Origin: Azolla caroliniana
Lineage: Eukaryota; Plantae; Polypodiophyta
Direction of reading: 5' to 3'
DNA: 64,000 nt
Assembly (NCBI GenBank): GCA_043228905.1
Contig: JBHGNT010000020.1
Span: 5,890,001-5,954,000 of the forward strand
Below are positions 7,966 to 61,055 of this stretch, in pieces (the stretch's first letter is position 1; every line of letters begins with the position of its first letter). The notes under the pieces are model-generated. The model worked only from the letters and a program-made list of their open reading frames with translations. It had not been told where the DNA came from and did not search any database. The position numbers were made by a program, and so were the translations under genes.

Positions 7966-9767
7966 GTCCGAATCCAGTCGATTCATCATGATCTTTGGTC
8001 TACATCCGGCTTCCAACCGGATGTGTCCCAACATCTTCCAACCGATTTCTATCGGTCGACCTGGCATCCACTATCTTCTTCTCCAACTCCCAATCGGCAA
8101 TGGTCTTGTCTTCCATGAAGAGTATATCTCGACTCCGGAAAACCTTTCTGTCGACCAAGTCCCGCACTCGGTAGCCGAACTCATCATCGTCGTATCCAAG
8201 GAATATGCATGCTTGGGACTTCGGATCCAATTTCACTCTCTTGTCCTTTGCTACATGCACGTAGACGACACAACCGAACACCTTCAGATGCCGGTAAGAC
8301 ACGTCTTTACCGGCCCATACTCTCTATGGTGTGTCTCCGTCGAAGGGAGTCGAGGGTGATATGTTTATCACATACGTCACCGTCATCAGCGCCTTGGCCA
8401 AAAACATCTTGGAAAACTTAGCATGAGCAAGCATGCTCCAAACTCTCTCCATTACGATCCGGTTCATTCTTTCGGCCAGTCCGTTCAGTTCCGGTGTCAT
8501 TGGCATGGTGAATTCGAGCCGGATTCCCATCAACCAGAATTACTCCTCGAACTACCCCTAGTATTCTCCACTGTTGTCGGCTCCAACTGCCTTCAGCTTC
8601 CGACCAGATTCCTTTTCCACTCTCACATGGAATTCCTTGAAGACGGATAATACATGGTCCTTTGTCTTTAGCGGTGAAACCCACAACTTACAGTTGTGGT
8701 CATCTATGAACGTCACGAAGTACTGCGACCCAGCATGTGACTTCGTGTCCACTTGGTATACATCGATATGCACAGGTTCCAGTGTTGCATTCCGTCTCGA
8801 CGGTGGTCTGGTTCGGAAAGAGGTTCAGTTTTGCTTGCTGGCCAAACAGTCGGTGCACTTCTCAAGTTGCACATCTTTCACCTCTAGAATGAGGTTATCT
8901 TTGGCAAGTCTCTGCATTCCCTTCTGGCTCATGTGACACAACCTCTTGTGCCACAACTCACTGGCAGTGTCGGATGCCACGTTCACTTCTTCCCGGCATA
9001 TATGGGTATGCATCAGATACAGTGTGTTGATTTTCCGAGCTCAAGCCATGATCAAACTCCCTTTGCTGAACTTCATGACTCCGTTCCGGATGCTACCCAT
9101 GTAGCCTTCATCATCCAGCCGACCGGCTCATATCAGGTTCAACCGAACCTCCGGAATGTGTCGGACATCTTTCAACAGCAACTCTCGAACGTTGTCAACC
9201 ACACGTCTCCTATGCCGACAATCTGGCATGCACCTTCATTCCCCATCTGGACACAACCGTGATCTCCGGCTTTGTAGGATGAGAAACACTTTCGGTCAGG
9301 GGTAAGATGGAACGACGCACCGAAGTCGACTACCCGCATCGTTTCGTCGCTAACAAGATGCAACTGAATCTCCTTGGTGATCAGCAACAGGTCTTCTTCA
9401 CTTGTTGCGATTGTCGATGTTCCTCTCCTTTCCGAAATCTTCTTTGGTTCCGGAATATCGGTTCCCCCTTTGGCTTTCCGGAAGTGTTAGCAATTCTTCT
9501 GGAAGTGCCCGGGCTTTCCGCATTAAAAGCAAGTGGGCCTCCCCCTTGACTTCGACCTCGTCCCTGATTTGTCCTGGTTCAGAGGACCTGATTCCGGCCT
9601 CTTCCCTGATTATGGTCGTCTTCCATAACCAAGGCCTTCGGATCGGTTCCGGACTCCCGGTCCTTCCGGAGAGCTTCTTCGTTTAGCAAACATGACTTCA
9701 CTCTCGCTAGGGATAAGTTTTTTCCTTCCAATCTGGCATTGCAAAGAGCAACAACCAATGTCTCCCA

Positions 9768-9852
9768 TGTTGGAAGCAATGTCGTCTGTGCGGAAGATCT
9801 TGAAGCACTCGATTCCTGTTTATTCCCTGTGTATGACAGAATGTAGGTCGTT

Positions 9853-9887
<35 letters not shown>

Positions 9888-12800
9888 AGAGTTTCTATTT
9901 CACAAAGCAATAATACAACAACCAACCTCACAAAGAGGTTACAAGGTCACTATATATAGTGACCGACTTAGGGCAACTACCCTTTATGCTAATTACAAGA
10001 ATGGCCAAATACGAGATAGTGTGAATACGTCCATTATACACATGTATTCGACACTCCCCCGTAATGGGCGTATACATGGGTTATCTAAGATTACAGGTAT
10101 AGACTTAGGTTCTCGGACATATCAGCTTTGTTCGAGTCGGCAGGGTCCGAAGGCAGAAGACCGAACTGGTCGGGTCGGAACAGTTGAAGCCGATCATTAA
10201 GGAACTGATGTCGGTTGTCGGGAACCATCCTGCTCTGTGTCCGGCTCTAACCGGACTGGTTTGTCGTTACGCCCATCTGATGCCGAAGAGACCGAAAACG
10301 GTCTGCCGAGAGACATTTGGTCATTCCATCTGCGACATTATCGGTTGTGGATATTTTCTCTAGACCGATTTTCCCTGAAATGACGCAGTCCCGAACGAAG
10401 TGATATCGAACGTCGATATGTTTGGAGGCGTTGTGGTGAACCGGATTTTTCGACAAGGCAACAGCACCTTGACTGTCGCTGTAGACAACTGGAGCCGAGT
10501 CATGTTCGACTTGTCGAAACGTGTGCGCCAGCCGACCGAGCCACAAAGCTTCTTTTGCTGCGTCGGACGCGGCTACATATTCTGCTTCGGTCGTTGAGGT
10601 CGCTGTGCACTCCTGAAGTTTCGACTTCCACGAGATTGCTCCATTGCCGAATTTGAAGCAGTATCCGGTTGTTGATTTCCGACTGTCTATACAGCCGGCG
10701 AAGTCCGAGTCGGTGTAACCGACTACGCCTGAGGTTCGGTTCGGACCGAAAAGAATGCCATGGTCTTTTGTGCCAACCAGATATCTGAACACATGCTTGA
10801 CTGCGTTCCAATGCGATCGGCCAGGATTGTGCATAAATCTGCTAACGACTCCTACGGCATGAGAGATATCAGGCCGTGTCGCGACCATCAGGTACATAAG
10901 GGAGCCGACTGCCGGTGCATACGGTACCGACTTCATATCTTCCCCCTCCGGACCGGATGTCGGGCAGTCTCGCTGAGAGAGCCGAAGATTCATAGGGAGC
11001 GGGGTTGAAGCAGATTTGGCTGATTGCATGTTGAAGCGTTCCAAGACACGTCCGATATAGTCGGTCTGAGACAAAAAAAGGTATCGTTTGTCGCGATGCC
11101 GACTGATCTTCATGCCGAGTATGTGTCGTGCCGGACCGAGGTCCTTCATGGCAAACTTCAACCGCAGTTGCCGAATGAGATCGGCAAGTTCGCCCGCGTG
11201 GCGTCCAGAAATTAGCATGTCGTCCACGTAAATGATGAGGAAGATGGGTGAACCATCTTGAGCTGTGTTGGTGAAGAGACAATGGTCCTCATCGCTTTTG
11301 GAGAAGCCGATCGATTGGATGAAGTCGTCGAACTTCTTGTACCATTGTCGCGGTGCCTGTTTGAGGCCGTATAGACTCTTCCTGAGTCGGCAGACTAGAT
11401 GTTCTTGGCCGGTGGCCACGAAGCCTTTGGGCTGCTCCATATAAATTTCCTCCTCGAGATCACCATGGAGGAAGGCTGTTTTGACATCTAGCTGAATCAG
11501 CTCCAAGTTGTCGGCTGCCACGACGCCGAGCAGAAAACGAAGGGTTGTCATTTTCACCACTGGTGAAAAAATCTCGTCGAAGTCGACGCCATATTCTTGT
11601 CGGAAGCCCTTCGCAACTAATCTGGCCTTGTACTTTGGGGTGGTCGAATCAGACGTCTCTTTGAGTCGATAAACCCACTTGCAAGGAAGAGCACGTCGGT
11701 TCCTAGGTAATTCGACCAGATCCCAAGTCTTGTTTGCCCGAATGGAGTGCATTTCCGACTCCATCGCCAGATGCCATGTGGCCGAATCGACAGATGTCGA
11801 TGCTTCTTCGTAAGACGTCGGTTCGCCGGCGTCGGTGAAGAAGACTCCAGGAGAATACCTCTCCGGAGGTTGCGACAGTCTCTCGGATCGTCGAGGCATG
11901 ATTGGACTGGTCGCATCGGGTATCGTGGTCGGATGGTCCGAAAGCGGATTGGTCTGCTGTGCCGAGTCGGAGTTGTCCGAGTCGGTAGTGTAAGGTTCAG
12001 CTACCCGTGAAGCTGACCGTGTGTTGAGAGCGGGGCCTTCTTGAAGGGTCGGCACATCGGAAAATGTTACCCTTCGGACTTCGATCGGTTTTTCGACTGA
12101 TGGATTCATAGCCGACTCGTTGAACACAACGTCCGAACTTCGAACGATTTGTCTGCGTTCGGGGTCCCAGAGTCGGTATCCCATTTCGCCGTCAGATCCA
12201 TATCCAAGGAAAATGCATTTCCTGGACCGAGGTGCAAGTTTTCGGCGATCATCTTTCGGAATAAGGGCGTACGCCTCGCATCCGAAGATCCTCAGCTTGT
12301 CGTAATTCGGCTTACTGCCGATCCATAGTTCCTGAGGAATTTGAAGTCCTAGAGGTCTACTTGGCGACATATTGATTATGTGTACTGCCGTGAGTAGAGC
12401 CTCTGCCCAGAAGCCATCCGACAGTCCGGAGTGTTGGAGCATGGAAACTATCCGTTCTTGGATTGTCCGATTCATGCGTTCGGCAATCCCGTTTTGCTCC
12501 GGACTGTGTGGTGCCGTAAATTCACGTCGGATGCCGCGTTGTCGGCAGAATTTGACGAATTCTTCGGATTTGAACTCTCCCCCATTGTCTGTCCGAAGGC
12601 ATTTCAGCTTTCGGTCGGTTTGATTTTCTATCATAGCGAGCCAATCGGTGAAGATCGAGAAGACCCGATCTTTGGTGCGAATTGGATAAGCCCACACCTT
12701 TCGAGTCGAATCGTCAATAAAAGTGACGAAGTAAGAGGCACCACCGAGAGACTGATGCGGCATTGGGCCACAGACGTCCGAGTGGACCAAATCGAGAGGT

Positions 12801-15147
12801 CTCGATTCTCTTGGTGCTGATGTTGGGTGTGATGTGGCTGCTTGTTTGCCATACTGGCAATGCTCGCAGAATTGATGGTCGGAGAAGGAGAGTTTGGGGA
12901 TGTATCCGGCTCTAGATAGGTGCGTGATGCCGGCCTTGCTGAGGTGTCCTAATCTTCGGTGCCATAGTGATGACACAGGAATATCCACCAAGAACAGGTT
13001 ACCCTCTCTGAGCGTAACATGTAACGGATACAGGGAGTGTATCTTGGGTCCTCTAGCAAGTAGGAGGTTCCCCCTGTGGAGTGTCCACCCTCCCGAAGAA
13101 AAACCGGCACGAATGCCGTCTTCATCTAGTTGTCCGACTGAGATCAATGGCCTTGAGAGCTCGGGTACATGTCGGACATTGTGGAGTACAAGTGTAGAGC
13201 CACCTGCAAGGTTGAGCTCTACTGTGCCGATTCCGATGATGTCACAGTGTTGTGAGTTGCCGACCCGAACTGAGTCGGAGTGACGGATCGTATATTGCCG
13301 AAATTGGGACCGATGGGGAGTCACATGAAATGACGCGCCCGAGTCCAAGAGCCATGTGCTCGATTCTTCAGTCGTGAGCAGAATTTCTGAGCCGACTGGG
13401 TTTTCGATTGATAGTATGTTCGGGTCGTCCGGTAGCACATCAGCTGAGAAGCTGACGTAATTGATCTCCTCATGCCGGCCACTCTTCTTGTTGTTCTTGT
13501 TCTTGAGTGCGCGGCAGTCGGCTTTGATGTGTCCGGGTTTCTTGCAATAGTTGCAGATTCGGTTGTCCCGTGACTGGCTCCGTCTTCGCTGATTGTTCGG
13601 CGGTCGTGAGGAATCTCTTCCTCGTATGTTCGATCGGTCTGTCGAACCTTGTACTACGTAAGCGTCGTCTGTTGAGTCTTTGGCGAAAGACTTTCTCCGA
13701 GCTGCTTCGGTCAGGATTGCGCTCGTGACTTCGGAGTATTTAACAGCCGTGGTTGACGCGTTGCACACGGTTGTAACGAAAGTTTCCCATGATGAGGGAA
13801 GACTGCTCATGAGTATCATGGCTCTGAGTTCATCCTCGATTGCCGTCCCCTGTGACGAGATTTGGGAGCTTATGCTTTCGTACTCATTGAGGTGTGCTTG
13901 AACCGAATCGGATTCTTTCATCCGCAAGTTGTAGAGGCGCCGGATCAGAAACATCTTCGTTGCGGCGACCTTCTTTTCGTAAGTGTCCGACAGGGTTTTC
14001 CACAGTTCGAATGCTGTCGTACACGATTGCACCGTAAAGTATACCGATTCCGATAGGTGCATCCGAATCGTGGCGCGGACGATTCTGTCCAGCTTCTGCC
14101 ACTCAATTGGTTTGTATCCTTCTGGAGGTTCTTCATTTTCGATGGGATCGATTTGCCCCTTGACTATGAGATAGTCCTGCATTTGTTCCTTCCAGAAGTT
14201 GAAGTTCGATCCATCGAACTTTCGTAGACTCATTTCTGACGAGCCGGATGTTGATGCCATCAAATTTGGTTTCGGTTGACGAAGCTCGGTTCGGAGTTGA
14301 CTACGAATCTTGTTGGAGTGCAGCCTGTTGGCTCACCCGATATCGTTCTAGTCGGATTTGAACCCGAGTCGGTTCGGCTTCGGATATATATATTGTTGAA
14401 CTTGCTCGAATTGACTCCGGTAACTTGAGGGACAGAACCGACTGGTCTTCCCGAATGTTGCCGAGTCGGAGTGAGCCCGGTTCGCTTCGGATATATGTGC
14501 CGAATACCGATTATTGAAACCGATTATCTTGACCGATTCTGCTTCGGTTGACTGCAGCGATGAGAGAGACGGATCCGACTGATCCTCCCGAATGTCGATC
14601 AGCTAGATGAAGCACGAATTTGGGTTGTTGTCAAAGTTGCACAAGGGGATTTCACCTCGAGCGGTTACGATCACAAGGGACAGAGTACGACCTGCTGGCT
14701 TACTCCAAGCAAGAGGATCTAACGCAATGAGATGCAAACCTGGTTTTTTTTTTTTTTTTTCCTCTTCTCTCTTCTTCGAATGACGCAGGAAACCGAATGC
14801 AGAGACGACGGCCGACAGCGGATTGAAGGACCGACTACTGTGCAGGCTCTGATACCAGATGTTGGAAGCAATGTCGTCTGTGCGGAAGATCTTGAAGCAC
14901 TCGATTCCTGTTTATTCCCTGTGTATGACAGAATGTAGGTCGTTGCACAGAGAGAGAGAGAGAGAGAGAGAGACACACAGAAGAGTTTCTATTTCACAAA
15001 GCAATAATACAACAACCAACCTCACAAAGAGGTTACAAGGTCACTATATATAGTGACCGACTTAGGGCAACTACCCTTTATGCTAATTACAAGAATGGCC
15101 AAATACGAGATAGTGTAAATACGTCCATTATACACATGTATTCGACA
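9768..15147 (-). mobile_element. Intact, young Ty1/copia element B
   Basis: LTRs 9768-10053 and 14860-15147 (TG..CA; one substitution plus a microsatellite change), TSD TCCCA (9763-9767, 15148-15152), PBS TGGTATCAGAGC at 14846-14857, PPT from 10054. Confidence 0.97.
10247..14263 (-). CDS. Gag-Pol polyprotein of copia B (1338 aa)
   Basis: Uninterrupted ORF: CCHC knuckle (CNYCKKPGHIKADC), protease WLLDSGASFH, integrase HSDVCGP..RTDNGGEF..AERMNRT, RT LYGLKQ/YVDD, RNase H YTDSDFAG..KHIDVRYHF, in copia domain order. Confidence 0.97.
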   Translation of the reverse strand: MMASTSGSSEMSLRKFDGSNFNFWKEQMQDYLIVKGQIDPIENEEPPEGYKPIEWQKLDRIVRATIRMHLSESVYFTVQSCTTAFELWKTLSDTYEKKVAATKMFLIRRLYNLRMKESDSVQAHLNEYESISSQISSQGTAIEDELRAMILMSSLPSSWETFVTTVCNASTTAVKYSEVTSAILTEAARRKSFAKDSTDDAYVVQGSTDRSNIRGRDSSRPPNNQRRRSQSRDNRICNYCKKPGHIKADCRALKNKNNKKSGRHEEINYVSFSADVLPDDPNILSIENPVGSEILLTTEESSTWLLDSGASFHVTPHRSQFRQYTIRHSDSVRVGNSQHCDIIGIGTVELNLAGGSTLVLHNVRHVPELSRPLISVGQLDEDGIRAGFSSGGWTLHRGNLLLARGPKIHSLYPLHVTLREGNLFLVDIPVSSLWHRRLGHLSKAGITHLSRAGYIPKLSFSDHQFCEHCQYGKQAATSHPTSAPRESRPLDLVHSDVCGPMPHQSLGGASYFVTFIDDSTRKVWAYPIRTKDRVFSIFTDWLAMIENQTDRKLKCLRTDNGGEFKSEEFVKFCRQRGIRREFTAPHSPEQNGIAERMNRTIQERIVSMLQHSGLSDGFWAEALLTAVHIINMSPSRPLGLQIPQELWIGSKPNYDKLRIFGCEAYALIPKDDRRKLAPRSRKCIFLGYGSDGEMGYRLWDPERRQIVRSSDVVFNESAMNPSVEKPIEVRRVTFSDVPTLQEGPALNTRSASRVAEPYTTDSDNSDSAQQTNPLSDHPTTIPDATSPIMPRRSERLSQPPERYSPGVFFTDAGEPTSYEEASTSVDSATWHLAMESEMHSIRANKTWDLVELPRNRRALPCKWVYRLKETSDSTTPKYKARLVAKGFRQEYGVDFDEIFSPVVKMTTLRFLLGVVAADNLELIQLDVKTAFLHGDLEEEIYMEQPKGFVATGQEHLVCRLRKSLYGLKQAPRQWYKKFDDFIQSIGFSKSDEDHCLFTNTAQDGSPIFLIIYVDDMLISGRHAGELADLIRQLRLKFAMKDLGPARHILGMKISRHRDKRYLFLSQTDYIGRVLERFNMQSAKSASTPLPMNLRLSQRDCPTSGPEGEDMKSVPYAPAVGSLMYLMVATRPDISHAVGVVSRFMHNPGRSHWNAVKHVFRYLVGTKDHGILFGPNRTSGVVGYTDSDFAGCIDSRKSTTGYCFKFGNGAISWKSKLQECTATSTTEAEYVAASDAAKEALWLGRLAHTFRQVEHDSAPVVYSDSQGAVALSKNPVHHNASKHIDVRYHFVRDCVISGKIGLEKISTTDNVADGMTKCLSADRFRSLRHQMGVTTNQSG

Positions 15148-15306
15148 TCCCAACTATCCGGAAGGGACCCAAGCAATAACAATTCCAATACCTCGTCGGC
15201 TAGCAGTACTTCGAGCGAGGTAGTCTGGTTTATCAGCCCCTAGAAGGCATTCATATGCTTTGCCATGATGGTGTCGTCTTGATACTGAAGCCTCACTATG
15301 TTCCAG

Positions 15307-18580: not shown

Positions 18581-19665
18581 ACGTAATACCCGGCTATCAT
18601 CCATGTGGGTCGCGGATGTGGCGCTTTGTAGTTGTAGTTGTAATTCGACCATACCTTCTTGCAGCTCCTGTACCTACTGCTTGTGCTCCATCTCCGTCCG
18701 TCTCCTTGTTTATTCTTGTATTCCATGTCCTTTGCTCCGAGTAGCACCTAAGACAACTATTGGTGCACTTCGACCAAGGCCATGTGTAGTGCGGTAGTTC
18801 AATTGTCATGTGGCCTCCGTCCGCATGCCGTTTCTAGCCGATCTTGCTCAAGGCATTCTCCTCTTCAAGTTCTATTAATCCAGCAATAGCGTATTGGATC
18901 ATTTGTCGCTCTGTGTGTTCTTCGGCCAAGTCCCTAGCCTCTACGACCTGTTGCATTGCAAGGAATTCAACCAGTTTAAACGTTGTGCCGAGGTGCAAGA
19001 TGGTCGTGAATTCGTGCATGACGGCCGGGATTTCTCGATAAGAGAGGACTTCTCTCTCTTGGATTAGGGACCCTTTCCCTCGTTTGAGCTTCCCAGTGAG
19101 TGTCGTTCCCTCGATCGTGTCCGGAACGATTGTTGTTGATGCCTCAATGGGTGCCTCCGTGGCCGGCTTCGAGGTTACGTCTTTAGGCAGGCCTTGGCTA
19201 TTTTTTCGATCCAAACAGCGGTGTTTTCGGCTTTGTTCTTCGAGGAGGCTCCTCTCTGTTATGTTTGCTCCTCTACTGGTTAGCCTATGCGGTTTCCATT
19301 TGTTGTTCCACGGAAATGGAGGTGTTGATTACCGATTTGATCGGCCGGGAGGGTGCGGTTTTTTTAGGCCACTCACTTTCTTCGTCTTGCCACTCCTTCA
19401 TCCAGAGTTCACCAAGTTGCTTCTTTTGGCCAGAGATTGGTGTCTGTGTTGCGGCTTGGCTACCTATATTGGGGGTTGGGAGTGTTGTGACAAGCGGAAA
19501 CAATATTGTCAAGTATGGTGCGATGATAGGAATCATTTTCTTCCCCACTTGTAGGGAGATCAGCCCAGCCCGTAAGGCCGCACTGGTGATGTATCCCCAA
19601 TTGATTGGGGCTACACCTGCTTTGTGTTTTGGCAACGCATGTGGCCTCCAACATGAATTTGGCAA

Positions 19666-21583
19666 TGTCAAGATTCGAACTCTTGACATAACCATGTTAT
19701 AATCGAGTGTTATGTGTTAACCAGACATCTAGCATATAATCATGTATATACTTCCTCATTGTAGGTTTTAGGTAGCATCATGTGCATAATTTCTCCCTTG
19801 TATTATTAACACTTGGCACATGCATGCGTACCTACTACCTACATGCTCTATTGTATCACATGCGTGCAATAGGTATGCATACCACTTAGTATAAATAGTT
19901 GAGTTCACCTTGAAGGAATTCAAGGTGAACAACGCCAATCATGGACATATCAATCTAGTATTCTCGTTTCGCCCATCTTCTCTCCTTAATCTTCATCTCT
20001 ATCTTTATGCTCTTGTGTCATTCCGTCATCGCTCCATCGTAGCCTCATCATTAGTGCTCCGTCTTAGTCTGCACTTGGTGTGTCCGTGACAGTTTGTTCA
20101 CCTTCCAACTAGAAGCATCACCCGTCTCCATCATCGCCCTTGCTTCCAAAGTTACCATCGTCAACATCCCTTCATTGTCTCTATTTTTTAGTTTCTCCTC
20201 ATCATTGTCTCTATTTTTTAGTTTCTTTCCCGTTCGTGTTCATGTTCTAGTTCCCAGTGAGGGCCGCACAAGGCCACTCACTCCCGTTGGTGTTCGTGTT
20301 CCAGTTCCCGGTGAGGTCCGCACAAGGCCGCTCACTCCCATTGGTGTTCGTGTTCCAGTTCCCGGTGAGGGCCGCATGGTCGCTCACACCCATTCGTGTT
20401 CGAGTTCCCGGTGAGGTCCGCACAAGGCCGCTCACTCCCTTTGGTGTTTGTGTTCGAGTTCCTAGTGAGGGCCGCATGGTCGCTCACGCCCGTTTGTGTT
20501 CCTGTTCCCAGTGAGGGCCTCACATGGCCGCTCACTCCCATTTGTGTTCCTGTTCCCGGTGAGGGCCGCACATGGCCACTCACTCCCGTTCGTGTTCGTG
20601 TTCCCGGTGAGGGCCGCATGGTCGCTCACTCCCGTTCGTGTTCCAATCTCTGGTGAGGACCGCACATGGCCGCTCACTCCAACTATTGTTCGTGTTCTAG
20701 ATCCCAGTGAGGACCAACATGGTCGCTCATGCCCGTTGTTGTTCATGTTCCAGTTCCCGGTGAGGACCACACATGATTGATTACTCCCGTTCGTGTTCCA
20801 TTTCTCAGTGAGAACAACATGGTTGCTCACGCCCGTTGGTGTTCGTGTTCCAACTCTCAACGAGGACCGTTCCAGTTCCCGGCAAGGACCCCACATGGTT
20901 ACTCATGCCCCTTGGTAATCATGCTCCCCGTGAGGACCGCACATGGTCGCTCACAACCGTTGATATTTGTGTTCCAGTTCTAGGCGAGGACCACACATGG
21001 TCGCTCATGCCCATTGGTGTTAAATACCTCGTCTTGTGGAAGGGTTACTCCTTGTCTAGGATTTACAAAATACTTTGGAGGTGATCTAAGATTTTCATCA
21101 ACAATATCCCCTTAAGCCGGCAAACGATTTGGGAAGGCATCGTTGGAGGGGGGATAATGTCAAGATTCGAACTCTTGACATAACCATGTTATAATCGAGT
21201 GTTATGTGTTAACCAGACATCTAGCATATAATCATGTATATACTTCCTCATTGTAGGTTTTAGGTAGCATCATGTGCATAATTTCTCCCTTGTATTATTA
21301 ACACTTGGCACATGCATGCGTACCTACTACCTACATGCTCTATTGTATCACATGCGTGCAATAGGTATGCATGCCACTTAGTATAAATAGTTGAGTTCAC
21401 CTTGAAGGAATTCAAGGTGAACAACGCCAGTCATGGACATATCAATCTAGTATTCTCGTTTTGCCCATCTTCTCTCCTTAATCTTCATCTCTATCTTTAT
21501 GCTCTTGTGTCATTCCGTCATCGCTCCATCGTAGCCTCATCATCCATGCTCCGTCTTAGTCTGCACTTGGTGTGTCCGTGACA
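19666..21583 (+). mobile_element. Non-autonomous LTR element (TRIM-like, 1918 bp) derived from a chromovirus
   Basis: Near-identical 426-bp LTRs 19666-20091 and 21158-21583, TSD GGCAA/GGCGA, PPT GGAGGGGGGA at 21145-21154. No gag/pol, but a chromodomain remnant KYLVLWKGY..DFHQQYPLKP at about 21020-21120. Confidence 0.92.
20230..21020 (+). repeat. Tandem array of about 16 units of 46-54 bp, each with an internal palindrome
   Basis: Consensus TTCGTGTTCCAGTTCCCG-GTGAGGGCC-GCACAT-GGCCGCTCAC-TCCCGTTGGTG; the units degrade towards the 3' end. Confidence 0.95.
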
Positions 21584-23000
21584 GGCGACATCCCGGAAAA
21601 AAATGTTTGGTGCCTACTGGATCGTATATGCCTTGGCAGAGGACGAGTATTCGCCGAAATATTTCTCCAGTTCATTGGTGGGAGGGATCTCCAAGCACCA
21701 GTCCCCAAGCGAGATGAGACCGAGCTTCTTTCGGACCATGGCATTTGTGATGGTGTCGATGTTCAGCTTGGTGCCATTGTCCTAAGCGTTGGGGTGGGGG
21801 TGAGCTTCGACAACACGGATGTAACCTGCCAAGCCGTGAGCGATGAGCCACTGGCGGAGGGTAGGTGGAATATCAATAGCCATGGGGATAGACAGATTGT
21901 GTGCTGAGTGCAAAGGGTGAGCCTGGGCTATACAGTGCGAGCGGAAAGATTGGGGAAATCATTATCACAACCCGCGGCATCCTCTCCATTCTTGATGCGG
22001 CTTAGGTAGTCTACTACTACATGTTGAGTTCCTAGCCTCTACTAAATTTTGAAGTAACAACATCCATCTACCCAGCTTCCCTGTGAGCGACTATTTGGAA
22101 ACAAGGTACGGGAGGGCCACATGATCCACGTGAAACACAAACTTTTGGCCCAGTAGGTAGTGTCGAAATTTGTTTATGTTGTAGATCATACCTAGGGCTT
22201 CCCATTTGATTGTGGAGTAGTTTCATTCGGAAGTCAAAAGTTTTTGGCTCAAATAATAGAACGGCCAATACCAGTTCGGCTCGGTCAATTGCATTAGAGC
22301 ATTGCCGATTGCGATGATCAATGTGTCAACAAACACGTGGAACGGGAGCGTCCAATCCAACGGTTGGATGATTGGTTCTTGTGTTAGCATGACCTTCAGA
22401 GCCATATATGCTTTCTCCTCTGTTTCCATCCATTGGAATGGTGTATAGTGCACTATCACGTGCAGAGGTGTAGCGAAGTCGGCTAGATAGAGCAACATCT
22501 GACTATGCCATTGGATCTGTCTGAGGACGCAATTTAGGGGCTTTGCATTTTTTGGGGCCGGTGCTTCGATGATCACCTTGATTTTCCCCGGATCGACCGC
22601 AATGCCTTCGCTACTTACTATATGGTTGTGGAACGCCATTTGTGACGCCGAACGCACGCTTAAGCCTCATTGATCAACATCAATCCAAACATAACCGCAA
22701 ATGCCGAAGATGTTCTCTTCTTGTGCTATAAACCGCGAAGTCGGTGAGGAAGACCTGCATAAAGGCAGGTATATATTTGTTGAAAATCTCCGTGATGATG
22801 TGTTGAAAGGTTGTTGATGCAGTTTTGAGCCCGATCATCATCACAATTACTACAAATACACCCCAATCTATTAGAACGTCTTCTTCTCCTGGTCAACCAG
22901 TGCATACGAATCTGATTGTAGCCATTGAAGCCATCTAAAAAACTACATACATTTTGTGGACGGCTACCGCGTCCAACACCCCATCCGCGAACGGTAAAGG

Positions 23001-26000
23001 TGTAAAGAATCAAATGTGATTCTGTGCAAAGGAAGAGATGTGTGTGTGTGTGTGTGTGAAGAGGAGAGGTGAGGAGAGAAACACAAGATAGTCAAGAGAA
23101 AAATGAAGTACCCAAGAAGAAGATGTATATTAACAAGGAGAATATTTAGTACAAAAATGTCGCATTACAAGGGAGGACAACCGACACTTTATGAAGTAGG
23201 AGGAGGGTGCTTTATATTAGGTCACCCTCTCTCTTCATTAACTCACTATAATGCCCACTCTCTCTTGGGGAATGTGGAGACTTGCGAGTCATGGGGAATA
23301 TGGAAATCATTAGTTATGTGTCATAGAATATGATTCTATGACACATAATTAATGTGTAGAGAGTAGTGGTGACTTTTGACCTTTGCGTGCTCATAGATTC
23401 TCAAAGGGTGTGTTCCACACTAGGCTAGGTTGAGCTTGATTCTCAACATGCCCCCTCCAGCTCAACTCGGGTCGTTTCCTTTCGGTTGATGTCTGCTTCG
23501 GTTGGTATCCAATTCGGACAATATCTAGTGTTTGCTTCAGTTGGTACCCGGTTCTCTCTTGTACTCCCCCTCAAGCTTGGCAAGTCAAGGATCGTCAATC
23601 TAAGGTTTGACATGAATTGCCGAAGCTTGTCGGCTCCTAGGGCTTTGGTGAAAATGTCGGTTTTCTGAAGATTCGTGTTGATATGTTGAAGGTCGACATC
23701 TCTAGCCTGAATGTGCTCTTTGATGAAGTGATAGTGCACCTCAATATGCTTCGTGCGCGCGTGGAACACCGGGTTCCGAGCCAGATAAATATTGTTCATG
23801 TTGTCACAGTAAAGGGGAGTCAAATCCTTGATGGGAATGCCCAAATCCTTCAAAATCCTCTTGAGCCATACGGCTTCCCATGCAGCCATAGTCCCGCCAC
23901 TGTATTCGCCCTCTGTGCTAAAAAATGCAACTGTTGGCTACTTCTTACTACTCCACGATATTGCTCCGTTGTCGAGCGAGAAGACGAATCCTAAGGTCAA
24001 TCGTCATTCAACTCTGTAGTCGACCCAGTGGGTGTCTGTGTACCCCTTGAGTCGAATTGGTGTAGCCGATTTGTAGAGAAGGTCACAATCCATTGTGCCG
24101 CTCATGTATCATAACACTCGCTTAGTGCAATCCAAGTGAATGTTACATGGCTTTTGCATGAATTGGCTAAGGAGACCGATGAGGTAGCTAAGGTCGGGTC
24201 AAGTGATTGTGAGATAGATGAGGCTCCCGATCAGTTGCCGATACACTTTAGGTTCTGATCGAGAGGGGTTGCCACAAACTTACATTCAGTCATCCCGAAC
24301 TTGTATAAAAAGTTAAGGATGTATTGTCATTGAGAGATCATAATACCGACTAGAGTCCAAATTACCTCAATGCCAAGGAAGTAATGGAGCTCCTTGTTGA
24401 TGTCTGTCATCTTGAATTTGCTGGAGAGGAGGGACTTGACCTTGTTGATGTCGACTAGATTTTCACCTCCAATGACTAGATTATCCACATATAGGATGAT
24501 GACAATCGGGCTTCTAGAATCGCTTCTAACATAGAGAGAGTTGTCGGATTTGGACATTCTGAAGCCGATTTGATGAAGATATTGTGTGATCTTCGAATGT
24601 CAAGCATGCGGTGGTTGCTTGAGGCCGTAGAGTGGCTTCTTTAGTCGACGGACTGCTTTCTGATGGATGTTGGATTCGAAGTCGGGTGGTTGGTCCATGT
24701 ACACCTCCTCTTCTAATTCGCCTTGGAGGAAGGAGTTCTTGACGTCCATATGGTGGAGGTGCCATCCTTTCGCCTTTGAAGGTCAGGAGCTTGATGACAA
24801 ATCCTCTCGATTGCATTGCCTTGAGTTTGTTGAGAGTGATGTGGCCAATCCTCTTGTGCCACAACTCTATCTCGGTGTTGGCTTTGAGGCCTTTTGCAAA
24901 TATGGCTGATTTTATCTCGTTCAACTCGAGCATAATCATTCGGCCTTCCCTTCAACCACGAGCGATAAGTTGGCCTTCCTTCTCGATGAAACAACCACCT
25001 TGGTTGAATCTAACTTGCATGCCTTGCTCAACAATTTGGCCGACTAAGACCAAATTCTTCGTTATGGTTGGTACATGCAAGATGTCTTTGATGCAAGTTT
25101 GTTCGCCTTCTTTCCTGAATGGGACATTGCCAATATGCCGAATCGGATGAGTACTGTCATCTCCAGTTTTGACATAGCCAAGTTGATCCGGCTCTCGTAA
25201 GTCTCAGAACCCTTTTTTATGAGACGTCATATCGTTCAAAGCACCGAAGTCGACGAACCATACATCTTCCAGACCGGAGGCACTAGTCGAAGTAGAGGCC
25301 AACATAGAATTTGCTCTATGTCTCATCACGAACATTCTGAAGAGAACAACATGGAATATTGCACGGCCATGACCGAGTAATGAATCACTTCAATGAGAAT
25401 GAAACACAGAAATGGGAAGTAGAGAGTACACTAAATGTTTACGTGGAAAACCCTAATGGGAAAAAACCACGGGAGCCCACAGACTCCAAGCTATCACTAT
25501 ATATAGGAAAGATACAATCAGAGACTCGGAGGCAACAACCTCGATCTCTATATCTTCGCCAACCGACAGTTACAACAGAGTATAACTCTGTATCTCCTCT
25601 CTCTCTATACAATAGTTATATCAACAACAATATGACAACAACTCTATCACAACCACACTTTAAGTGATTGCCCTAAGTCATATTTATACTTATATGAACT
25701 TAGGGCTATTTACAAATGTAGCTTCAATAGGCTTACTCAAAACATATTTACAAATATGTCTTCTCTTCTGGTTCTCACCAGGTCCATGCGATCCAGTTTC
25801 TGGAGCTCTTCCGGTTCTCACCGGGTCCTCTTCATTCATAACTAGATCCCATCTTGAGGGACCGATTTCCCAACACATTCTGCCATGATCATCATAGTTA
25901 GAGTTGGTGGCTTAATTGGTGAGTTGTCGGCTTGTGGAAGCCTACTCATGCTTCTTCTTCCGACACTCTTCTTCGTGGTGATCGATTTCGCCGCAATATC

Positions 26001-26996
26001 CGCACTCAATTGAGTTTTGTCAGCTTGGACCAGCATGGAAGCTCCCCCTTCTTCCAAATGTTCCTATATTGTTTCCATTTCCTTGCTGAAATTGGGAGTT
26101 ATTTTCATAGGTCGGACCTCGTCCCCCTCGTCCTTGACCGAATCGGCCTCTTTTTGTACAACCGCATCCTCTTCGTCCGTCCGAATGTGAGTAGAGCATG
26201 TGAACTTCCAAGGCATTGCTCCTTGTTCGAACATGGTTTTCTTCAACCAACAACATTGATTGAAGATCAAAGAAAGAGGGAGGATTCCCCCTTGCTAGAA
26301 TGGTGGTTCTCATTGTGCCGAATCGTGGTGCGAGGCCGCCTAGGCATATTGGCACCATCTCATCATCCTCCATGTTGACACTTATCGAGCCGAGCAAGTC
26401 ACAAAGCTCCTTGATCTTCAAGGTGTAGCTTGTGATGGACATGTCCCTTTATTGAATGTTATTATTCAACTCTTGGCAGAGTTGGAGCTTTCGTGCCGTC
26501 GTATTGGCAACGAATATCTTCTTGAGATCCTCCCAAGCTTCTTTCGGCTTCTTGGCTTCTCGAATGTAGCCAAGCATGTGGTCATGGACACATGTTGCGA
26601 ACCAATACATCACTCGCCTTGCCGCTTACTCCCATGTTGAGTAGTCTGCGTCCCTCAGGTCAAGTTTGTTTTCTTTTGCTCCTTGAATGTCGCCCCAATA
26701 GGTTTGGCCAACAAGGTATTGGTGCATCTTGTACTCCCAAGATGCAAAGTTGTTTCCATCCAACTTCTCGCTAGGGAGAGTGCTCCACATTTGAGTATTC
26801 ATTATCTCGATGTAGAATTCTTTCTTCTTTTCCTTCTCTCTCAAACACAAGCTATGTAGTTGCACTATGATAGCAATGAGCCGGTTCTTCTTGAAAGTCA
26901 GCATAGAAAACAACACACACAGATGCGCTAGATTGAGCTGCCAAATCACTCTGATACCATGTAAAGAATTGGATATGATTTTGTGCAACGGAAGAG

Positions 26997-27061
<65 letters not shown>

Positions 27062-27311
27062 GAGGAGAGGAGAGGAGAGAAACACAAGATAGAAAAGAGA
27101 AAAATGAAGTACCCAAGAAGAAGATGTATATTAACAAGGGGAATATTTAGTATAAAAATGTAGCATTACAAGGGAGGAGAACCAACACTTTATGAAGTAG
27201 GAGGGTGCTTTATATAAGGTCACCCTCTGTCTTCATTAACTCACTATAACGCCCACTCTTTCTGGGGGAATGTGGAGACTCACTAGTCATGGGGAATATG
27301 GAACTCATTAG
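23001..27311 (-). mobile_element. Internally deleted Ty1/copia element C (related to D)
   Basis: 3' LTR 23001-23448, PPT 23449-23458, RNase H/RT, GAG-pre-integrase fused directly to RT at about 24770, gag SEKLDGNNFASWEYKM, PBS 26949-26959, 5' LTR from 26960 truncated at about 27311. Confidence 0.9.
25338..25875 (-). mobile_element. Solo LTR related to copia A
   Basis: TG..CA, TSD CATTC (25333-25337, 25876-25880); shares GGGACC.ATTTCCCAACA and ACGTGGAAA.CCCTAAT with copia-A LTRs. Confidence 0.88.
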
Positions 27312-28711
27312 ACGATGACGTGTGGTGTCAATTTCCATCGGAGTTGGAGTACTTATTGGAGGCGCATTATATGACTCCCTCGGAAAAGGTTTCGCTACCA
27401 CTGAGGCGTAGGTAGGCTCTGATCTTGCCCTCGAAATTTGGAATTGTCATTCCGAACGTCGTTCGAAGAGGCGGTTGTCGCATCTCACCGCACGACTGAT
27501 TGCTTCTGTTAATGACTTTGGCTCTTCGGGGAAGGTCAAGAGTAAATCCTTGACATCGTTGCATAAACCATAACGAAATTGCTCCATCAATGCGTGATCA
27601 TCCCAAGGGATATCGGCAGTGAGTAAGTGGAAATTTGCAGCGTATGCAGAGGCTGGACGGTCACCTTGGCGTAATCGCCGGATTTTGTTGATTGTAGTCC
27701 TTATGCTATCAGTATCTCCAAAACAGGCCTTAAACTCACTTATAAATTCTTCAAAACTGTTTAGTAATGGATATTCCTTTTCCAACAATGGAGCAAACCA
27801 TGCTAACATTGAGCCACTAAGGAGAGTGCCTACTAGTCCCACTCGTGATGCATCGGTGGGATATCGAGAAGGATGCATTTGTATCACTAAACGTACCTGA
27901 TTCAAAAACCCTCTAAACTGTGATCGGGTCCCATCAAATTTTGCAGGAAGTCCGATCTTGGGTTCTTTGTGAATCCCTTGAGTGCGTGATCCTTATTGTT
28001 GTAATGATACGATAGTCTCTTCGAGTTGTTGTACACGTAACGTCAGCTCCCCATGTTGTTGTTTTTCTAGCGCTATTTGTTGAAGATCCCCCAACAAACG
28101 ATGATTTTCTTGTTCTAGTGCTACAAATTTCTCTTTTAAGCACTGGAGCTCCGAGAAAACAAATTGGTATTCCTGAGCGCTAACAGTTTCCATTTTACTA
28201 GGGAGGATAAGAGGATTAATAAGAAGATAAAAGGAAGAGGAGGAAAGGAAGATATGAAAGGAAGAACGAGCAAAATCGGTTCAAACTGTCAGGAACAGTA
28301 CTAAGATAGAGAAGGAATTAGTACTAAAAGAAGTATTAGGAGAGGTAAAGAACTCTCGAGAGAAGGAAAGAGTGAGTGAGAGGGAGGGAGAGAGAGAGAG
28401 AGAGAGAGAGAGTGATGATAAGAAAAGATATATATTATGTGAAGAGAATGTACAGTAGTAGCTAGGAGGCTTAAGACTGGCGTTGAACCAATTTGGTTCG
28501 AAATAATGCCTTGTGCCTCCTTTTATAGTGTTCTCAGGAATACTCCTAAAATTTCTAGAATGTTCCAGAGAAATCTGGAATATACATCAATTTTCTATAA
28601 TAAAACATAAATGAAAATAATATTATATGTATTATAATGTATGGTTTAATAGTTAAGAGCTTGACCCATGTAGCACAAGGTCATGGGTTTGAGTCTTGCC
28701 ATATCATGACA
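27312..28711 (-). mobile_element. 5' part of a Tcn1/sushi-like chromovirus (5' LTR plus gag)
   Basis: LTR 28287-28711 (425 bp); gag KEPKIGLPAKFDGTRSQFRGFLNQVRL..FRYGL..PTPMEID is of the sushi/Tcn1 type; the PBS does not begin with TGG. Confidence 0.8.
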
Positions 28712-28873: not shown

Positions 28874-31469
28874 GCGGGGGGTCATTGTTTTTGTTGGTGG
28901 CGCGGTTTCTTGAGTCAGCACCCGAATTTTTGCTCGGTCTTGGTAAAAGCTAATGTTGTTGTATTGCCAAATCAGCTTAATGCTCACTGAGCGCAACCAT
29001 GGTCGTCCCAAAAGTAGGGGTTATGCTCCCGGAGTGTCAAGAGCCAATACTACCGCCAATATTTCGAACGTATGACCATCTACGACGATTCCCAGTTTTC
29101 GCAACAGCCCCAACGGTTTGACGGATCAGGGACGGATCTTGTGTCCGCCATGTGAAGCCAGAATGGGCACGATTCCCAATTTACGATGCCAAGGCAATTG
29201 CAGGTAGCTTTGTTGATGACATTGACTCCGGAGGCGCCATCAATAATACATCCCGAGATTTCTTCCCTTTGTAGTATGATTTTAATAGCAAGGTTGTGGT
29301 GATCAACCACTGTCGGCCCTATTCTGGATTCCGTAAAATTGGCCAGAATAGTTAATGTGTCCGCTTACGCATTCGCGCTTCCATCATCTGCTAAAATTTG
29401 GGGATTAAGTTTAAGCGTTTATTCATGGTCATTGCAATTTGAGAGTCAGCCAAGGCTTGCCAAATCGGGTCCTCCTCCGCAATCGCTTCATCCGTTCGCA
29501 TTGTCGGCGTCGACGCTTCGGCTGCACTTTCGTGCCGCATGCATTCGACGTTCGCCTCATTTGCCTTTTCAACCCATGTTTTCACAGCGTTGCAGATTTC
29601 GCCCTGAACCTCCCAATCATATTCCTTGACTTGGCTACGAGTGGTTACTTGTTGGACTCCCACAGTGATCATGTTGACCGTTGGTAGCGTAATGCCCAAG
29701 CTGCTAGCAAATGAAGCAATGTAGGCTAGATTCACCCCTTTCGGCTATTGGTGGAGACACTAGCTACGGTTGCGGCTCGGGCTCGTCCCGAGGTCGTGGT
29801 TGGTACTTGTAGTGATGTGTATTGTGGGGTTTCTGTCATTAGTCGCAACGATTGTTATTCGGGGGTTGTCGTCGATCCTCGTCCGGACTGTCATCTCATG
29901 GGCGAGGGTTGCGAGGTTGTCGGTTCCCTCCGAAGTCCCGTGGTTTGGCTTGTCCACCATTATTGTTCATAGGACGCCGATTATCGTAACGTGGTCCGTT
30001 TCTATTGTCGTACTGATCATTTTGACGATAGTCATCTTCTTGACGATCCTCTTCGTCCCAATAGCGTTCATCATCTTGCCAAGAACGCTCGTTGTAGAGG
30101 GGATGCTCCATATTTCGGTAACCCTCATCTTGCCGGATCCGATCATTTAGTTGCATGTCGTTGCATTGTGGTTCGATTCTTCGAACCGGCGTTGTGGGTC
30201 AATTCAAGAGGTTATACTCAAACCGCTCCACCGTATGTGCCCTAGAATGGCAAATTGAGCAGCTCACCTGCATGTTGCAACCGATGGCCGAGTGCCCCGA
30301 GTTGAGGCAGATGGTGCACTGAATAGCCTGCCGAAACTTGAGCTCATCGTCTCATTGTAGGGCTTGCCGTAAGGAAATCCTCATCATGCTTCTGTCTGTT
30401 TCTTCCGTGTCGAACCGAAGTACTCGGTCGATCACCAAATCAGCCGTTTGGCATGTAAAGTCAAGCATGCCTAGAGTCGTTCACATGGGTCCACGCAAGG
30501 CCGCAAGAAAAGTGTCCTTGGCCTCATCTTCAGTAGGTGGGTGCGTCAGCTAGCTTCGGAGATACTTGCAGTGGATTACAAAGTCGGCAATGGGTTCTTG
30601 GCTACATTGTTTAATCGAGTAGAATTGGCCAATGATCTTGCGTTGTGGGACGCTTTGATGGAACAAGAGAAGGAACATCATTCATAGTTGTTCGAAGGTC
30701 GTGAACGTGGCCAAATCGAGTTGTGATTGCCATCGAGTCGTCCGGTCGTCAAGGGTGAGCCTGAACTCCACGATTTTTGATGCGTTGGTGTTTGCTTCTA
30801 CCAATCTTTGCAACACGTGGTTGGCTTGCCACATGTTGAGGAAGGACCTCACGTGTGCCTCTGTGTCAGGTTCACCATTGTAGCGTGGATATGGGAACAT
30901 CATGGTATCGGAGTTGTAAATATTGATGCTTTCATGAGCGCGATCTGTCGTAAGCGGTGTGTGGTTACCACTATGGTTTGCCTCAAAACTACTTCCGTCG
31001 TTGCCTTCAATGTCTGGGTGGAGTGGGAAGAGGACCACCTATCCTGTGGAACTTTGCTTGGTGAGCGTGGACTCGATCACGCTTTTGTTGAGATCCGGTA
31101 AGAGCGTGTCGTGCCGCGACTTTGCCAATGCAAGCTCTGCCGCACGTCGAGATTCTGCCCGAGTTCGAGGTTTACCTGGTCATGCTGTCTTTTGCTACCT
31201 CTTCTACTAGACAACATCCATTCCTCAATGTTCTTTTGTGTGCTCACAGATCGACCAAGCGTGCCAAAGGTGTTATCGGCCTAGGATAACACGGTGTCGA
31301 ATATTCGGTCCTTTGGCTATCTGACTCAAGGTCTTGTGTTCAGGGAAGTGAGTGTGTTTCACTTCGAACTCGTTCGGGATTCCGAACTGTAAGGGTTTAC
31401 GTATGAATCGAACTGAGGTTGTGCGACTGTGGAGATGAACAAGCTGACTACAACTGACTTAATACACAA

Positions 31470-33743: not shown

Positions 33744-34904
33744 CGCTACTTCTGCTTCACAGAGCTTCACTTTCCCCTTCTCCTTCTTCTGCAGAATCTC
33801 TCTTCAGATTCTTATCTCAATCTCGAGAAAGAGATAGCTCTCACTCTCTGCATGCTCTCTTTCAATTACTGGAAACACTAAATTTGCTGGCAAGTTATCT
33901 TCTCCACTCTCAACAGGAGAAGAAGGGAATTTTGACAAGGAGGAGACTGCATCTTCGTTGTCAATCTCTGTCAGGTATCTCTCTTTCATCCCCCTCACCT
34001 CCCCTTCATCTAACTTGTTTGTTATCTTTGTATCCGTTTTTTCGTAACATTTTCTTTTTACGATTCCACTGCTAGCTCATCTGCTCATTCTGTGACTCTT
34101 CTTTTGTTTCGAATGTCTTTTTTTTTTATCTCAGTTTATTCATCTATTTCCCTGCTGACGCTTCCCTTTACAGTCTTATGAATCGTGATTTTTTTCTCTT
34201 CTCTTCTAAATTGCCGAAGACTTAGGTATGCCATTCCTCTGAAGAGGTGCACGGAAAAACCGAGTTGTGTTAAATGCTTTAGGTTGTATAAGAAACAAAA
34301 TATGCGTAAAATGCAGGGACACATTAGTGAGGGTAACAGATCACTTTAATTTGTAAAAATGATGAGAATAATAACCCAGTTTAGCGGGCTTAAAATGCGG
34401 AATAAGACAATCAGTTGGAACAGATAAAACGGTCTATGGATCATTCTCGAATGAAGAGAAACAGCGAGTTTAAAGATTAGTGTGATGTGTCCGAAATGTA
34501 GATAAACGATGATTATAAACAAAACGGTTTGTCCACCATATAAGTAATATCTGATCTTATTTAAAATGTTTTAAACTGTGAAGTATCGAACCTTCGGATG
34601 GATAAGTTTTGCTTAAAATTCTTATATTTCACGATTTACTTAGTGAAAAAGATATGTTAAAAGAAGCAACTAAAATCTCTTGCATTATCAATCCATACGA
34701 TATTGGGTGGGACATTCTCAATAAATGCGTTGCTGATTTGACCTTAATACCTGTCATTTATTTAACTTCATCCATCTAGTTATTCAGAGAACCAACAAGA
34801 TCTAATTTGTCTTCTCATCAAGTTATTTGTTTATTTGTGCATGGTCATGTCTATGAGATTATTTTATTATTTTATCCTAACACAGACTCATTCGTCACTT
34901 CAGT

Positions 34905-54756: not shown

Positions 54757-54805
<49 letters not shown>

Positions 54806-59592: not shown

Positions 59593-60035
59593 TGTTATTG
59601 CTAGGGCCGGACAACAACCTAACATAGGGTGTCCACTTAAGACACGTCACCAAAGGGTGGTACGATAGAATGACTTACGACATAACGCTTAATTAGACCT
59701 CAATCGATTACATAACCATCCATAATTAACACGCGTAAGATATAACTATGAATACAGAATGGTAATCAACACTGGAAGATTAAGACAATAAGCTTTATTA
59801 ATTATCCGTCACTGATTACATTGTAACCGGGCCTTTATATAGGTCTCCGGTGCGAAATACAAAACGGTGCCAACTAGCACCTTTACGGGATCGTTCCGGA
59901 TCCGGATCGGCATACTGATTCCGGTCCGTCCGTCCACATCTTCTTAGATAATAATATATATATATTATGACTACTAATTACAACAGTTCCCGAATAACTA
60001 TTCCTTTCACACTCTGGTTTTGACCTCCTTAAGCC
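59593..60035 (-). mobile_element. Foreign LTR fragment inserted in copia-D RNase H
   Basis: TGTTATT...AATAAC(T)A plus about 35 bp of PPT-like flank interrupts STSGFV|FSLGSGAISW; no TSD survives. Confidence 0.65.

Positions 60036-61020: not shown

Positions 61021-61055
<35 letters not shown>

What the first reader, a model, noticed from the sequence alone, without database searches (positions are those of the whole stretch)
19890..20104. Non-autonomous LTR element with a Tf1-type self-priming structure
Seen: the PBS position (20094-20104, 2 nt after the LTR) reads TTGTTCACCTT, not TGG.., and is the exact complement of AAGGTGAACAA at 19922-19932, 32 nt after TATAAATA (19890), where transcription should start. 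The next bases CGCCAA can pair with U5 TTGGTG (20075-20080), and TGTC-CGT-GACA forms a U5 hairpin. Established: fission-yeast Tf1 primes reverse transcription with the first 11 nt of its own RNA through such a fold, while described plant TRIMs generally use tRNA. Inference: a tRNA-independent, non-coding parasite of Tcn1-type chromoviruses; near-identical LTRs show it moved in this form.
Basis: partly seen in the sequence, partly recalled or inferred. Interest (0 to 1): 0.8.

Follow-up and report, generated by a model that had tools for sequence, protein, structure and literature searches.

The report
Gene-less fern retrotransposon, likely self-priming
A 1.9-kb jumping gene in a fern-type genome has lost its protein genes and has no tRNA landing site; the site pairs with its own predicted 5' end and relatives keep that pairing with four different sequences, so it likely starts its DNA copy with its own RNA, a trick proven in yeast Tf1 and already predicted for its parent group.

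Summary
Observation confirmed. The element (19666-21583; 426-bp LTRs, 98.6% identical; 5-bp target duplication with one mismatch) has an 11-nt PBS that is the exact complement of 19922-19932, 32 nt after TATA; 0 of 20,000 LTR shuffles match that. Relatives show four different primer/PBS 11-mers, each paired with its own LTR (12 of 16 leaders 11/11; one 9/11; three chimeric ones 7/11). One was found blind, by Pol similarity. A broken chromodomain before the PPT identifies the parent: an intact Pol (P0334) whose frame runs into the same LTR start and whose RT falls with Tf1/sushi-like, not seed-plant, chromoviruses. So this is a high-copy deletion derivative of a Tcn1-like element that likely inherited self-priming. 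Start site and cleavage are untested; host tRNAs could not be searched. The mechanism is known (predicted for 83% of plant Tcn1); I found no paper on a gene-less self-primed plant element or on Tcn1 in ferns. An extra U3 hairpin over the primer may gate priming. This scan noted similar elements on other DNA before.

The parts
19661..19665 (+). left target-site duplication (GGCAA)
   Evidence: 4 of 5 bases match the right copy
19666..20091 (+). 5' LTR, 426 bp, TGTCA...TGACA
19890..19897 (+). TATA box, 32 nt before the predicted primer
   Evidence: same spacing (30-35 nt) in relatives of all four primer types that have the box
19903..19930 (+). 12-bp U3/R hairpin covering 9 of the 11 primer bases
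   Evidence: 0 of 1000 shuffles as stable
19922..19932 (+). predicted self-primer, predicted first 11 nt of the RNA
   Evidence: exact complement of the PBS; covaries with it; start site not measured
19938..19953 (+). R arm of the predicted R-U5 stem
20075..20090 (+). U5 arm of the predicted R-U5 stem (overlaps the alternative TGTC-CGT-GACA hairpin, 20081-20091)
20094..20104 (+). primer-binding site, non-tRNA type, after a 2-nt GT spacer
20228..21021 (+). array of 46-54-nt tandem repeats, non-coding
21019..21191 (+). broken end of the parent's Pol: chromodomain remnant in two frames, with an internal deletion and a stop, running through the PPT into the 3' LTR
21145..21154 (+). polypurine tract, 3 nt before the 3' LTR
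21158..21583 (+). 3' LTR
21584..21588 (+). right target-site duplication (GGCGA)
28274..28711 (-). comparator, not part of the element: LTR (28711-28287), predicted primer (28493-28483) and PBS (28284-28274) of a separate gag-bearing Ty3 element with the same layout and a different 11-mer

Best explanation
This is a high-copy, gene-less deletion derivative of a chromodomain-bearing, likely Tcn1-type Ty3/gypsy retrotransposon of a fern-type host, and it likely primes reverse transcription with the first 11 bases of its own RNA. Steps: (1, predicted) Pol II starts at about 19922, 32 nt after TATA. (2, predicted by folding and supported by covariation) bases 1-11 pair with the PBS, held by an adjacent 15-16 bp R-U5 stem. 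(3, inferred from Tf1) the RNase H of a helper RT cuts between bases 11 and 12 and the 11-mer primes minus-strand DNA across the GT spacer into U5. (4, inferred) Gag, RT and integrase come in trans from the autonomous family that encodes Pol P0334 and shares the LTR start. (5, shown by anatomy) the PPT and TG..CA ends are kept and the copy is flanked by a 5-bp duplication.
For: Exact 11-nt complement, 0 of 20,000 shuffles. Four different 11-mers each paired with their own LTR: 12 of 16 leaders 11/11, with changes on both sides at 4-6 positions between types. In the pattern scan the 8 bases not fixed by the pattern were all Watson-Crick paired in 8 of 14 matches from 11 element-type contigs, against 0 of 69 distinct unrelated matches (best 6 of 8). 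L101, found by Pol similarity alone, shows a fourth 11-mer paired 11/11. TATA-to-primer spacing 30-35 nt in 7 of 8 leaders tested. No PBS begins with TGG. Chromodomain remnant: profile scores 14.2 and 8.5 bits against a best of 4.1 in 200 shuffles; P0334 matches 70% over 44 aa and ends in the translated LTR start; it has protease, RT, RNase H, integrase and chromodomain and a cluster of 42 members. Its RT lies outside a 99-supported clade of green-algal and seed-plant chromoviruses. Tf1 mechanism: PMC7175516, PMC10085805 (passages). Tcn1 self-priming predicted for 83% of 1,500 elements: PMC6317226, supplement MOESM5.
Against: No start site, cleavage or cDNA data; the one RNA contig laid cannot show a start or even transcription. 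Three of 16 leaders (four of 14 scan matches) carry a type-B primer with a type-A PBS, 7/11 paired, and L089 pairs 9/11. The third duplex of the Tf1 'pretzel' (downstream of the PBS) was not better than shuffles in any of 16 leaders. The long R-U5 stem is clear only in types A and B. The 5' LTR and PBS of the P0334 element were not seen. The RT tree is a quick tree with weak backbone (75-89) and no labelled Tcn1 sequence. Host tRNAs were not available.
Confidence: 0.8

Rival explanations
1. The pairing is real but works differently: the primer comes from the 3' copy of the 11-mer or from a second co-packaged RNA, or transcription starts a little upstream and a longer 5' piece is cut to make the primer.
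For: The same 11-mer lies in the 3' LTR; in a two-strand folding model the 3' copy takes the PBS if its U3 arm is removed; starts from 19909 to 19926 all give the primer-PBS helix; contig L048 joins 15 nt of U3 plus the type-C primer to the antisense U5.
Against: With its U3 arm present the 3' copy is masked in the model; constant TATA spacing puts the start at or near base 1; Tf1 uses the 5' end in cis (PMC7175516, passages).
Confidence: 0.1
2. The PBS is bound by a host tRNA half or another small RNA, and the match to the LTR is a by-product of fold-back copying.
For: Half-tRNA priming exists in plant copia lineages (PMC6317226, passages); the PBS also repeats 9 nt of the U3 hairpin arm, so local inverted copying occurs here; host tRNAs could not be searched.
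Against: Four unrelated PBS cores would need four different tRNA fragments, each also copied into the LTR at the same distance from TATA; no Rfam match in 19500-21700 at E <= 1; half-tRNA use is reported only for copia.
Confidence: 0.05
3. The structure is inherited from the parent but this shortened form is not mobile by reverse transcription; copies arose by deletion in place or by tandem amplification.
For: Several relatives sit in tandem arrays (L018, L024, L071); the target duplication has one mismatch.
Against: Two LTRs 98.6% identical with a target duplication; the same shortened interior in three other assemblies and bridged by contigs of three other runs under other organism labels (table 8, records 14, 21, 29); dozens of different flanks behind the LTR end (table 7; these include solo LTRs and autonomous copies).
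Confidence: 0.05

Closest known systems
Tf1/Tf2 of Schizosaccharomyces pombe and the Tf1/sushi group (Tj1, Tosmo, Tcry1, sushi-ichi, fungal Tcn1)
   Same: 11-nt PBS complementary to the predicted RNA 5' end; adjacent R-U5 duplex; TG..CA ends fitting the Sushi motifs TGTYANR/CNTNACA (PMC3601003, passages); chromodomain integrase in the parent.
   Different: No coding capacity; plant host; the duplex downstream of the PBS was not found; an extra U3 hairpin covers the primer; nothing tested by experiment.
Plant Tcn1 chromoviruses of mosses and Selaginella (PMC6317226; PMC2864245; PMC3350952)
   Same: Predicted self-priming (83% of 1,500 elements), 5-bp target duplication, group I chromodomain in the parent Pol, separate gag and pol frames in relative L101.
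   Different: Those are 5.5-9.4 kb autonomous elements reported only from mosses and club-mosses; a PCR survey of 26 ferns and horsetails found none. This one is 1.9 kb, gene-less and in a fern-type host.
Plant non-autonomous LTR elements (TRIMs, LARDs, Cassandra; PMC13570524, PMC4717578, PMC6934838)
   Same: LTR-PBS-non-coding interior-PPT-LTR, coding remnant of a progenitor, tandem arrays and chimeric copies.
   Different: Size between TRIM (<1 kb) and LARD (>4 kb); PBS is not tRNA-derived, whereas all six PBS motifs of 115 sugar beet families were (that search used a tRNA list to call the PBS).
TAR lineage of Ty1/copia (Houba, Osr-1)
   Same: Predicted self-priming in plants (89% of 203 elements, PMC6317226 supplement).
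   Different: Copia; the chromodomain remnant and P0334 place this element in Ty3/gypsy.

Membership tests
Self-primed LTR elements (Tf1 type) | PBS position complementary to an 11-nt LTR segment and not to a tRNA CCA end | tested here: met
   no TGG start in any of four types
Self-primed LTR elements (Tf1 type) | Complementarity kept through changes on both sides | tested here: met
   12 of 16 leaders 11/11 over four sequence types; 3 chimeric 7/11; 1 at 9/11
Self-primed LTR elements (Tf1 type) | The primer segment is the 5' end of the RNA | not testable with these tools
   only contigs available; TATA spacing 30-35 nt is indirect
Self-primed LTR elements (Tf1 type) | Duplex between R and the U5 end next to the PBS | tested here: met
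   14-16 of 16 pairs in 9 concordant A/B leaders; short or unclear in types C and D
Self-primed LTR elements (Tf1 type) | Third duplex between sequence after the PBS and the LTR ('pretzel') | tested here: inconclusive
   best duplex no better than shuffles in 16 of 16 leaders; the primary Tf1 paper was not held
Self-primed LTR elements (Tf1 type) | RNase H cleavage after base 11 yields the primer | not testable with these tools
   needs cDNA or in vitro work
tRNA-primed elements | PBS matches a host tRNA 3' end or half | tested here: inconclusive
   full-length CCA end excluded by sequence; host tRNA set not available, no tRNA in the window, no Rfam hit
Tcn1 clade of chromoviruses | Group I chromodomain on the integrase (parent) | tested here: met
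   Pfam Chromo E 1.6e-16 in P0334; remnant in the element; reading of the aromatic residues as group I is from recalled motif knowledge
Tcn1 clade of chromoviruses | RT groups with Tf1/sushi elements, not with seed-plant chromoviruses | tested here: met
   quick tree; outside the 99-supported green-plant clade; deeper support weak
Tcn1 clade of chromoviruses | RT falls inside the clade defined by labelled Tcn1 references | not tested
   no labelled Tcn1 sequence was at hand
Tcn1 clade of chromoviruses | 5-bp target duplication | tested here: met
   GGCAA/GGCGA
Non-autonomous LTR element | No intact gag or pol; LTRs, PBS and PPT kept; multiple copies of the short form | tested here: met
TRIM in the strict sense | Under 1 kb with tRNA-type PBS | tested here: not met
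   1,918 bp, non-tRNA PBS

The most novel reading that the evidence does not exclude
Tcn1-type elements carry an 'anti-primer' hairpin across the U3/R border that gates self-priming: it hides the second copy of the primer at the RNA's 3' end and disables read-through or upstream-started RNAs, so only RNA begun at the right base primes. Because the primer is self-encoded, gene-less parasites can change primer and PBS together and still use one helper RT, and a strand transfer between subfamilies leaves LTRs with one family's primer and the other's PBS.
Probability: 0.25. Interest if true: 0.62.

Novelty: new variant of a known kind. Interest (0 to 1): 0.42.

Why it matters
It extends Tf1-type priming, so far only predicted in plants, to a gene-less, high-copy element and gives natural compensatory variants (four primer types) that make the prediction directly testable. 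It implies that a helper RT can cut and prime a passenger RNA. Pipelines that call the PBS from a tRNA list would miss such families. It also puts Tcn1-like elements in a fern-type genome, where a PCR survey found none. The mechanism itself is not new, and a deletion derivative is expected to keep its parent's priming signals.

Tried and rejected
No whole genome is held, so copies came from public contigs. A 17-nt U5 pattern in viral contigs gave 6 chance hits with no similarity to the element; the layout pattern there gave 4 chance hits. Gag and P0334 found no relatives in viral contigs. The window's own chromodomain ORF (52602-53324) does not match the remnant and is not the partner. TAR copia as parent: rejected by the chromodomain remnant. 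The gag-element control had a misplaced LTR end and is disregarded; one search has it right. One of 120 Gag-type proteins matched 20119-20181 (21 aa, Pro/Ser-rich, E 8e-4): unresolved, probably low complexity. RNA runs: one 153-nt contig in X20 over 19889-20041; X15 is probably DNA: no evidence on expression or start. No Rfam family, no tRNA gene in the window. The U3 hairpin was significant in only 2 of 8 leaders, types A and D. Summed contig depth is hundreds of times that of the flanks, but the tool warns it is no copy number.

Full report
Observation. The element runs 19666-21583 with 426-bp LTRs that differ at 6 places, a GGCAA/GGCGA target duplication and a purine tract 3 nt before the 3' LTR. 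The PBS position, after a GT spacer, is the exact complement of 19922-19932. None of 20,000 dinucleotide shuffles of the LTR gave an 11-nt complement; two copia elements of the window with TGG-type PBS gave 4 and 5. The leader folds at z = -4.25.

Host and context. The window's importin-beta groups with fern proteins, sister (support 100) to six rows that include Adiantum and Ceratopteris, in a quick tree of 33 rows; the genus was not determined. The element sits among nested retroelements. Twenty of 23 listed runs hold part of it, under several organism labels; in four DNA runs thousands of contigs lay on it and 25-29 contigs per run (X7, X11) leave the LTR end into different flanks. It is a high-copy family; no copy number can be given.

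Interior and parent. The 1,066-bp interior is a short leader, an array of 46-54-nt repeats and about 140 bp that translate, in two frames and through a stop, as the end of a chromodomain. A profile of 77 chromodomain ends scored these pieces 14.2 and 8.5 bits against a best of 4.1 in 200 shuffles; 79 of 120 Pol-type C-termini hit this spot at E < 0.05. The best, P0334, is 70% identical over 44 residues (E 2e-16) and its frame ends in the translated start of the same LTR; eight further full-length cluster members printed end alike (cluster of 42). P0334 has protease, RT, RNase H, integrase and chromodomain. In a quick RT tree of 27 rows it lies outside a clade of green-algal and seed-plant chromoviruses (support 99) and among fungal and vertebrate Tf1/sushi-like proteins, with weak deeper support and no labelled Tcn1 reference. 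The element is therefore a deletion derivative of a Tcn1-like chromovirus whose intact Pol still exists in related assemblies. Its own 5' LTR and PBS were not seen. The same shortened 3' interior occurs in L014, L018 and L024 and is bridged by contigs in X2, X7 and X11.

Covariation. A second, gag-bearing Ty3 element of the window (minus strand, LTR 28711-28287) has the same layout with another 11-mer, paired 11/11 with one G-U. I scanned public contigs with a pattern that fixes CAACGCCA and TGACAGTTTG...TT but leaves the 8 bases before CAA and the PBS core free. Of 94 loci, 11 were of this element type (10 by BLAST to the window's LTRs; L029 by its primer and a nearby gag fragment, which is partly circular). 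Their 14 matches had 8 of 8 free bases paired in 8 cases, 6 of 8 in one, 4 of 8 in four and 3 of 8 in one; 69 distinct matches in the other 83 loci reached at most 6 of 8, mode 2. L101, fetched only by similarity to P0334 (56%), has a gag frame, the same LTR end and spacer, and a fourth 11-mer paired 11/11, 30-32 nt after TATA. Over 16 leaders (two repeat-unit duplicates of L024 and the rearranged L048 left out): 12 pair 11/11, one 9/11, three 7/11. The types are AAGGTGAACAA (A), AAGGGATTCAA (B), AATTGGTTCAA (C), AGTCTCGACAA (D). Raw contig data show both the B primer and the B PBS independently (B PBS about 4-13% of depth). The leaders are few and related, so the counts are of sequences, not events; the four types are the independent part.

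The discordant copies. L014, L024 (twice) and L071 have B-type U3 and primer followed by A-type R, U5 and PBS. In L024 and L071 they are inner LTRs of tandem arrays; the reciprocal was not seen. They may be one recombinant, or short-read assembly chimeras. Their switch lies after base 8 and before the first R differences at about bases 20-29, which is where a self-primed strong-stop transfer, lacking bases 1-11, would put it (inference, one event at most). They count against strict covariation until long reads settle them.

The fold. The minimum-energy and centroid folds pair 19939-19953 with 20075-20089 next to the primer helix; most copies have G at 19938 and a 16th pair. In nine concordant A/B leaders the long stem keeps 14-16 of 16 pairs, with one two-sided and several one-sided conserving changes, while CGCCAA/TTGGTG loses a pair in five. 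A common variant at 19943 (7-46% of depth) breaks one pair of the long stem. Tf1 needs three duplexes (PMC10085805, passages); the one downstream of the PBS was not better than shuffles here.

The U3 hairpin. A 12-bp hairpin at 19903-19930 covers nine primer bases. In the folding model, RNAs starting at 19903 or earlier lose the primer-PBS helix (probability 0.01-0.24), those starting at 19909-19926 keep it (1.0), and the hairpin masks the 3' copy of the primer (a two-strand model, suggestive only). A 13-bp hairpin with other letters lies at the same place in L101. Both beat 1,000 of 1,000 shuffles, but the 6-7 bp versions in types B and C do not (fractions 0.06-0.53). It may be a gate or a by-product of fold-back copying.

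Mechanism. Shown: anatomy, complementarity, covariation, parentage. Predicted: start at 19922 and the fold. Inferred from Tf1 (PMC7175516, PMC5341516, PMC4600332, passages): RNase H cut after base 11 and priming, here by a helper RT. Confidence 0.8.

What is known. PMC6317226 (passages; supplement MOESM5 read whole; Additional files 1 and 3 too large to see and may bear on the hairpin and on host range) predicts self-priming for 83% of 1,500 Tcn1 and 89% of 203 TAR elements and reports Tcn1 only in mosses and club-mosses. PMC2864245 (passages) found no Tcn1 by PCR in 26 ferns and horsetails. PMC13570524 (passages) found six tRNA-type PBS motifs in 115 non-autonomous sugar beet families, using a tRNA list. 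PMC4717578, PMC6934838, PMC3601003, PMC3350952: passages. The Lin and Levin 1998 paper was not held (title only). Ten searches showed no description of a self-primed non-autonomous plant element, of Tcn1 in ferns or of a U3 hairpin over the self-primer; the library lacks most subscription papers, including the original Tf1 and sushi work. Ceratopteris Gag proteins at 55% identity to the window's second element suggest such elements are wider in ferns. This scan has noted similar small self-priming elements in other genomes.

Verdict. Real, well supported, and a variant of a known system: interest 0.42.

Noticed in passing
window 27447-28711 (-): Gag-bearing Ty3 element with the same self-priming layout and a different 11-mer; cut off downstream by a copia insertion and inserted in another LTR (28876-28717 resembles 18583-18420).
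   Followed up: partly
L048:4196-4392: 15 nt of U3 plus the type-C primer are joined through the 2-nt spacer to the antisense U5-R, next to a full LTR: the layout of a primer extended on the PBS. One low-coverage contig; could be an artefact.
   Followed up: partly
L024:1122-7764; L018; L071: Tandem arrays alternating two subfamilies (A and B) with different U3, primer, PPT and interior; L024 repeats a 3,283-bp unit, possibly an assembly loop.
   Followed up: partly
L101 (CADCWO010000091.1): A plant-type Tcn1-like retrotransposon contig sits in a cyanobacterial genome bin, probably contamination.
   Followed up: partly
window 34881-37376 (+): Importin-beta gene in one long open frame of 831 aa; used to place the host among ferns.
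   Followed up: partly
window 9767-15151 (-), 54462-61113 (+), 23039-27311 (-): Three copia elements; the first has a 1,361-aa open frame and 98% identical LTRs, the second carries a 243-bp unit repeated about four times at 56344-57310.
   Followed up: no
window 52602-54459 (-): Fragment of another chromovirus (RNase H, integrase, chromodomain) with a different chromodomain type; not the partner.
   Followed up: partly
window 21584-23040 and 28876-29400 (-): Degenerate pol pieces of a non-chromovirus-like Ty3 element flank the insertions (lineage label from recalled motifs).
   Followed up: no
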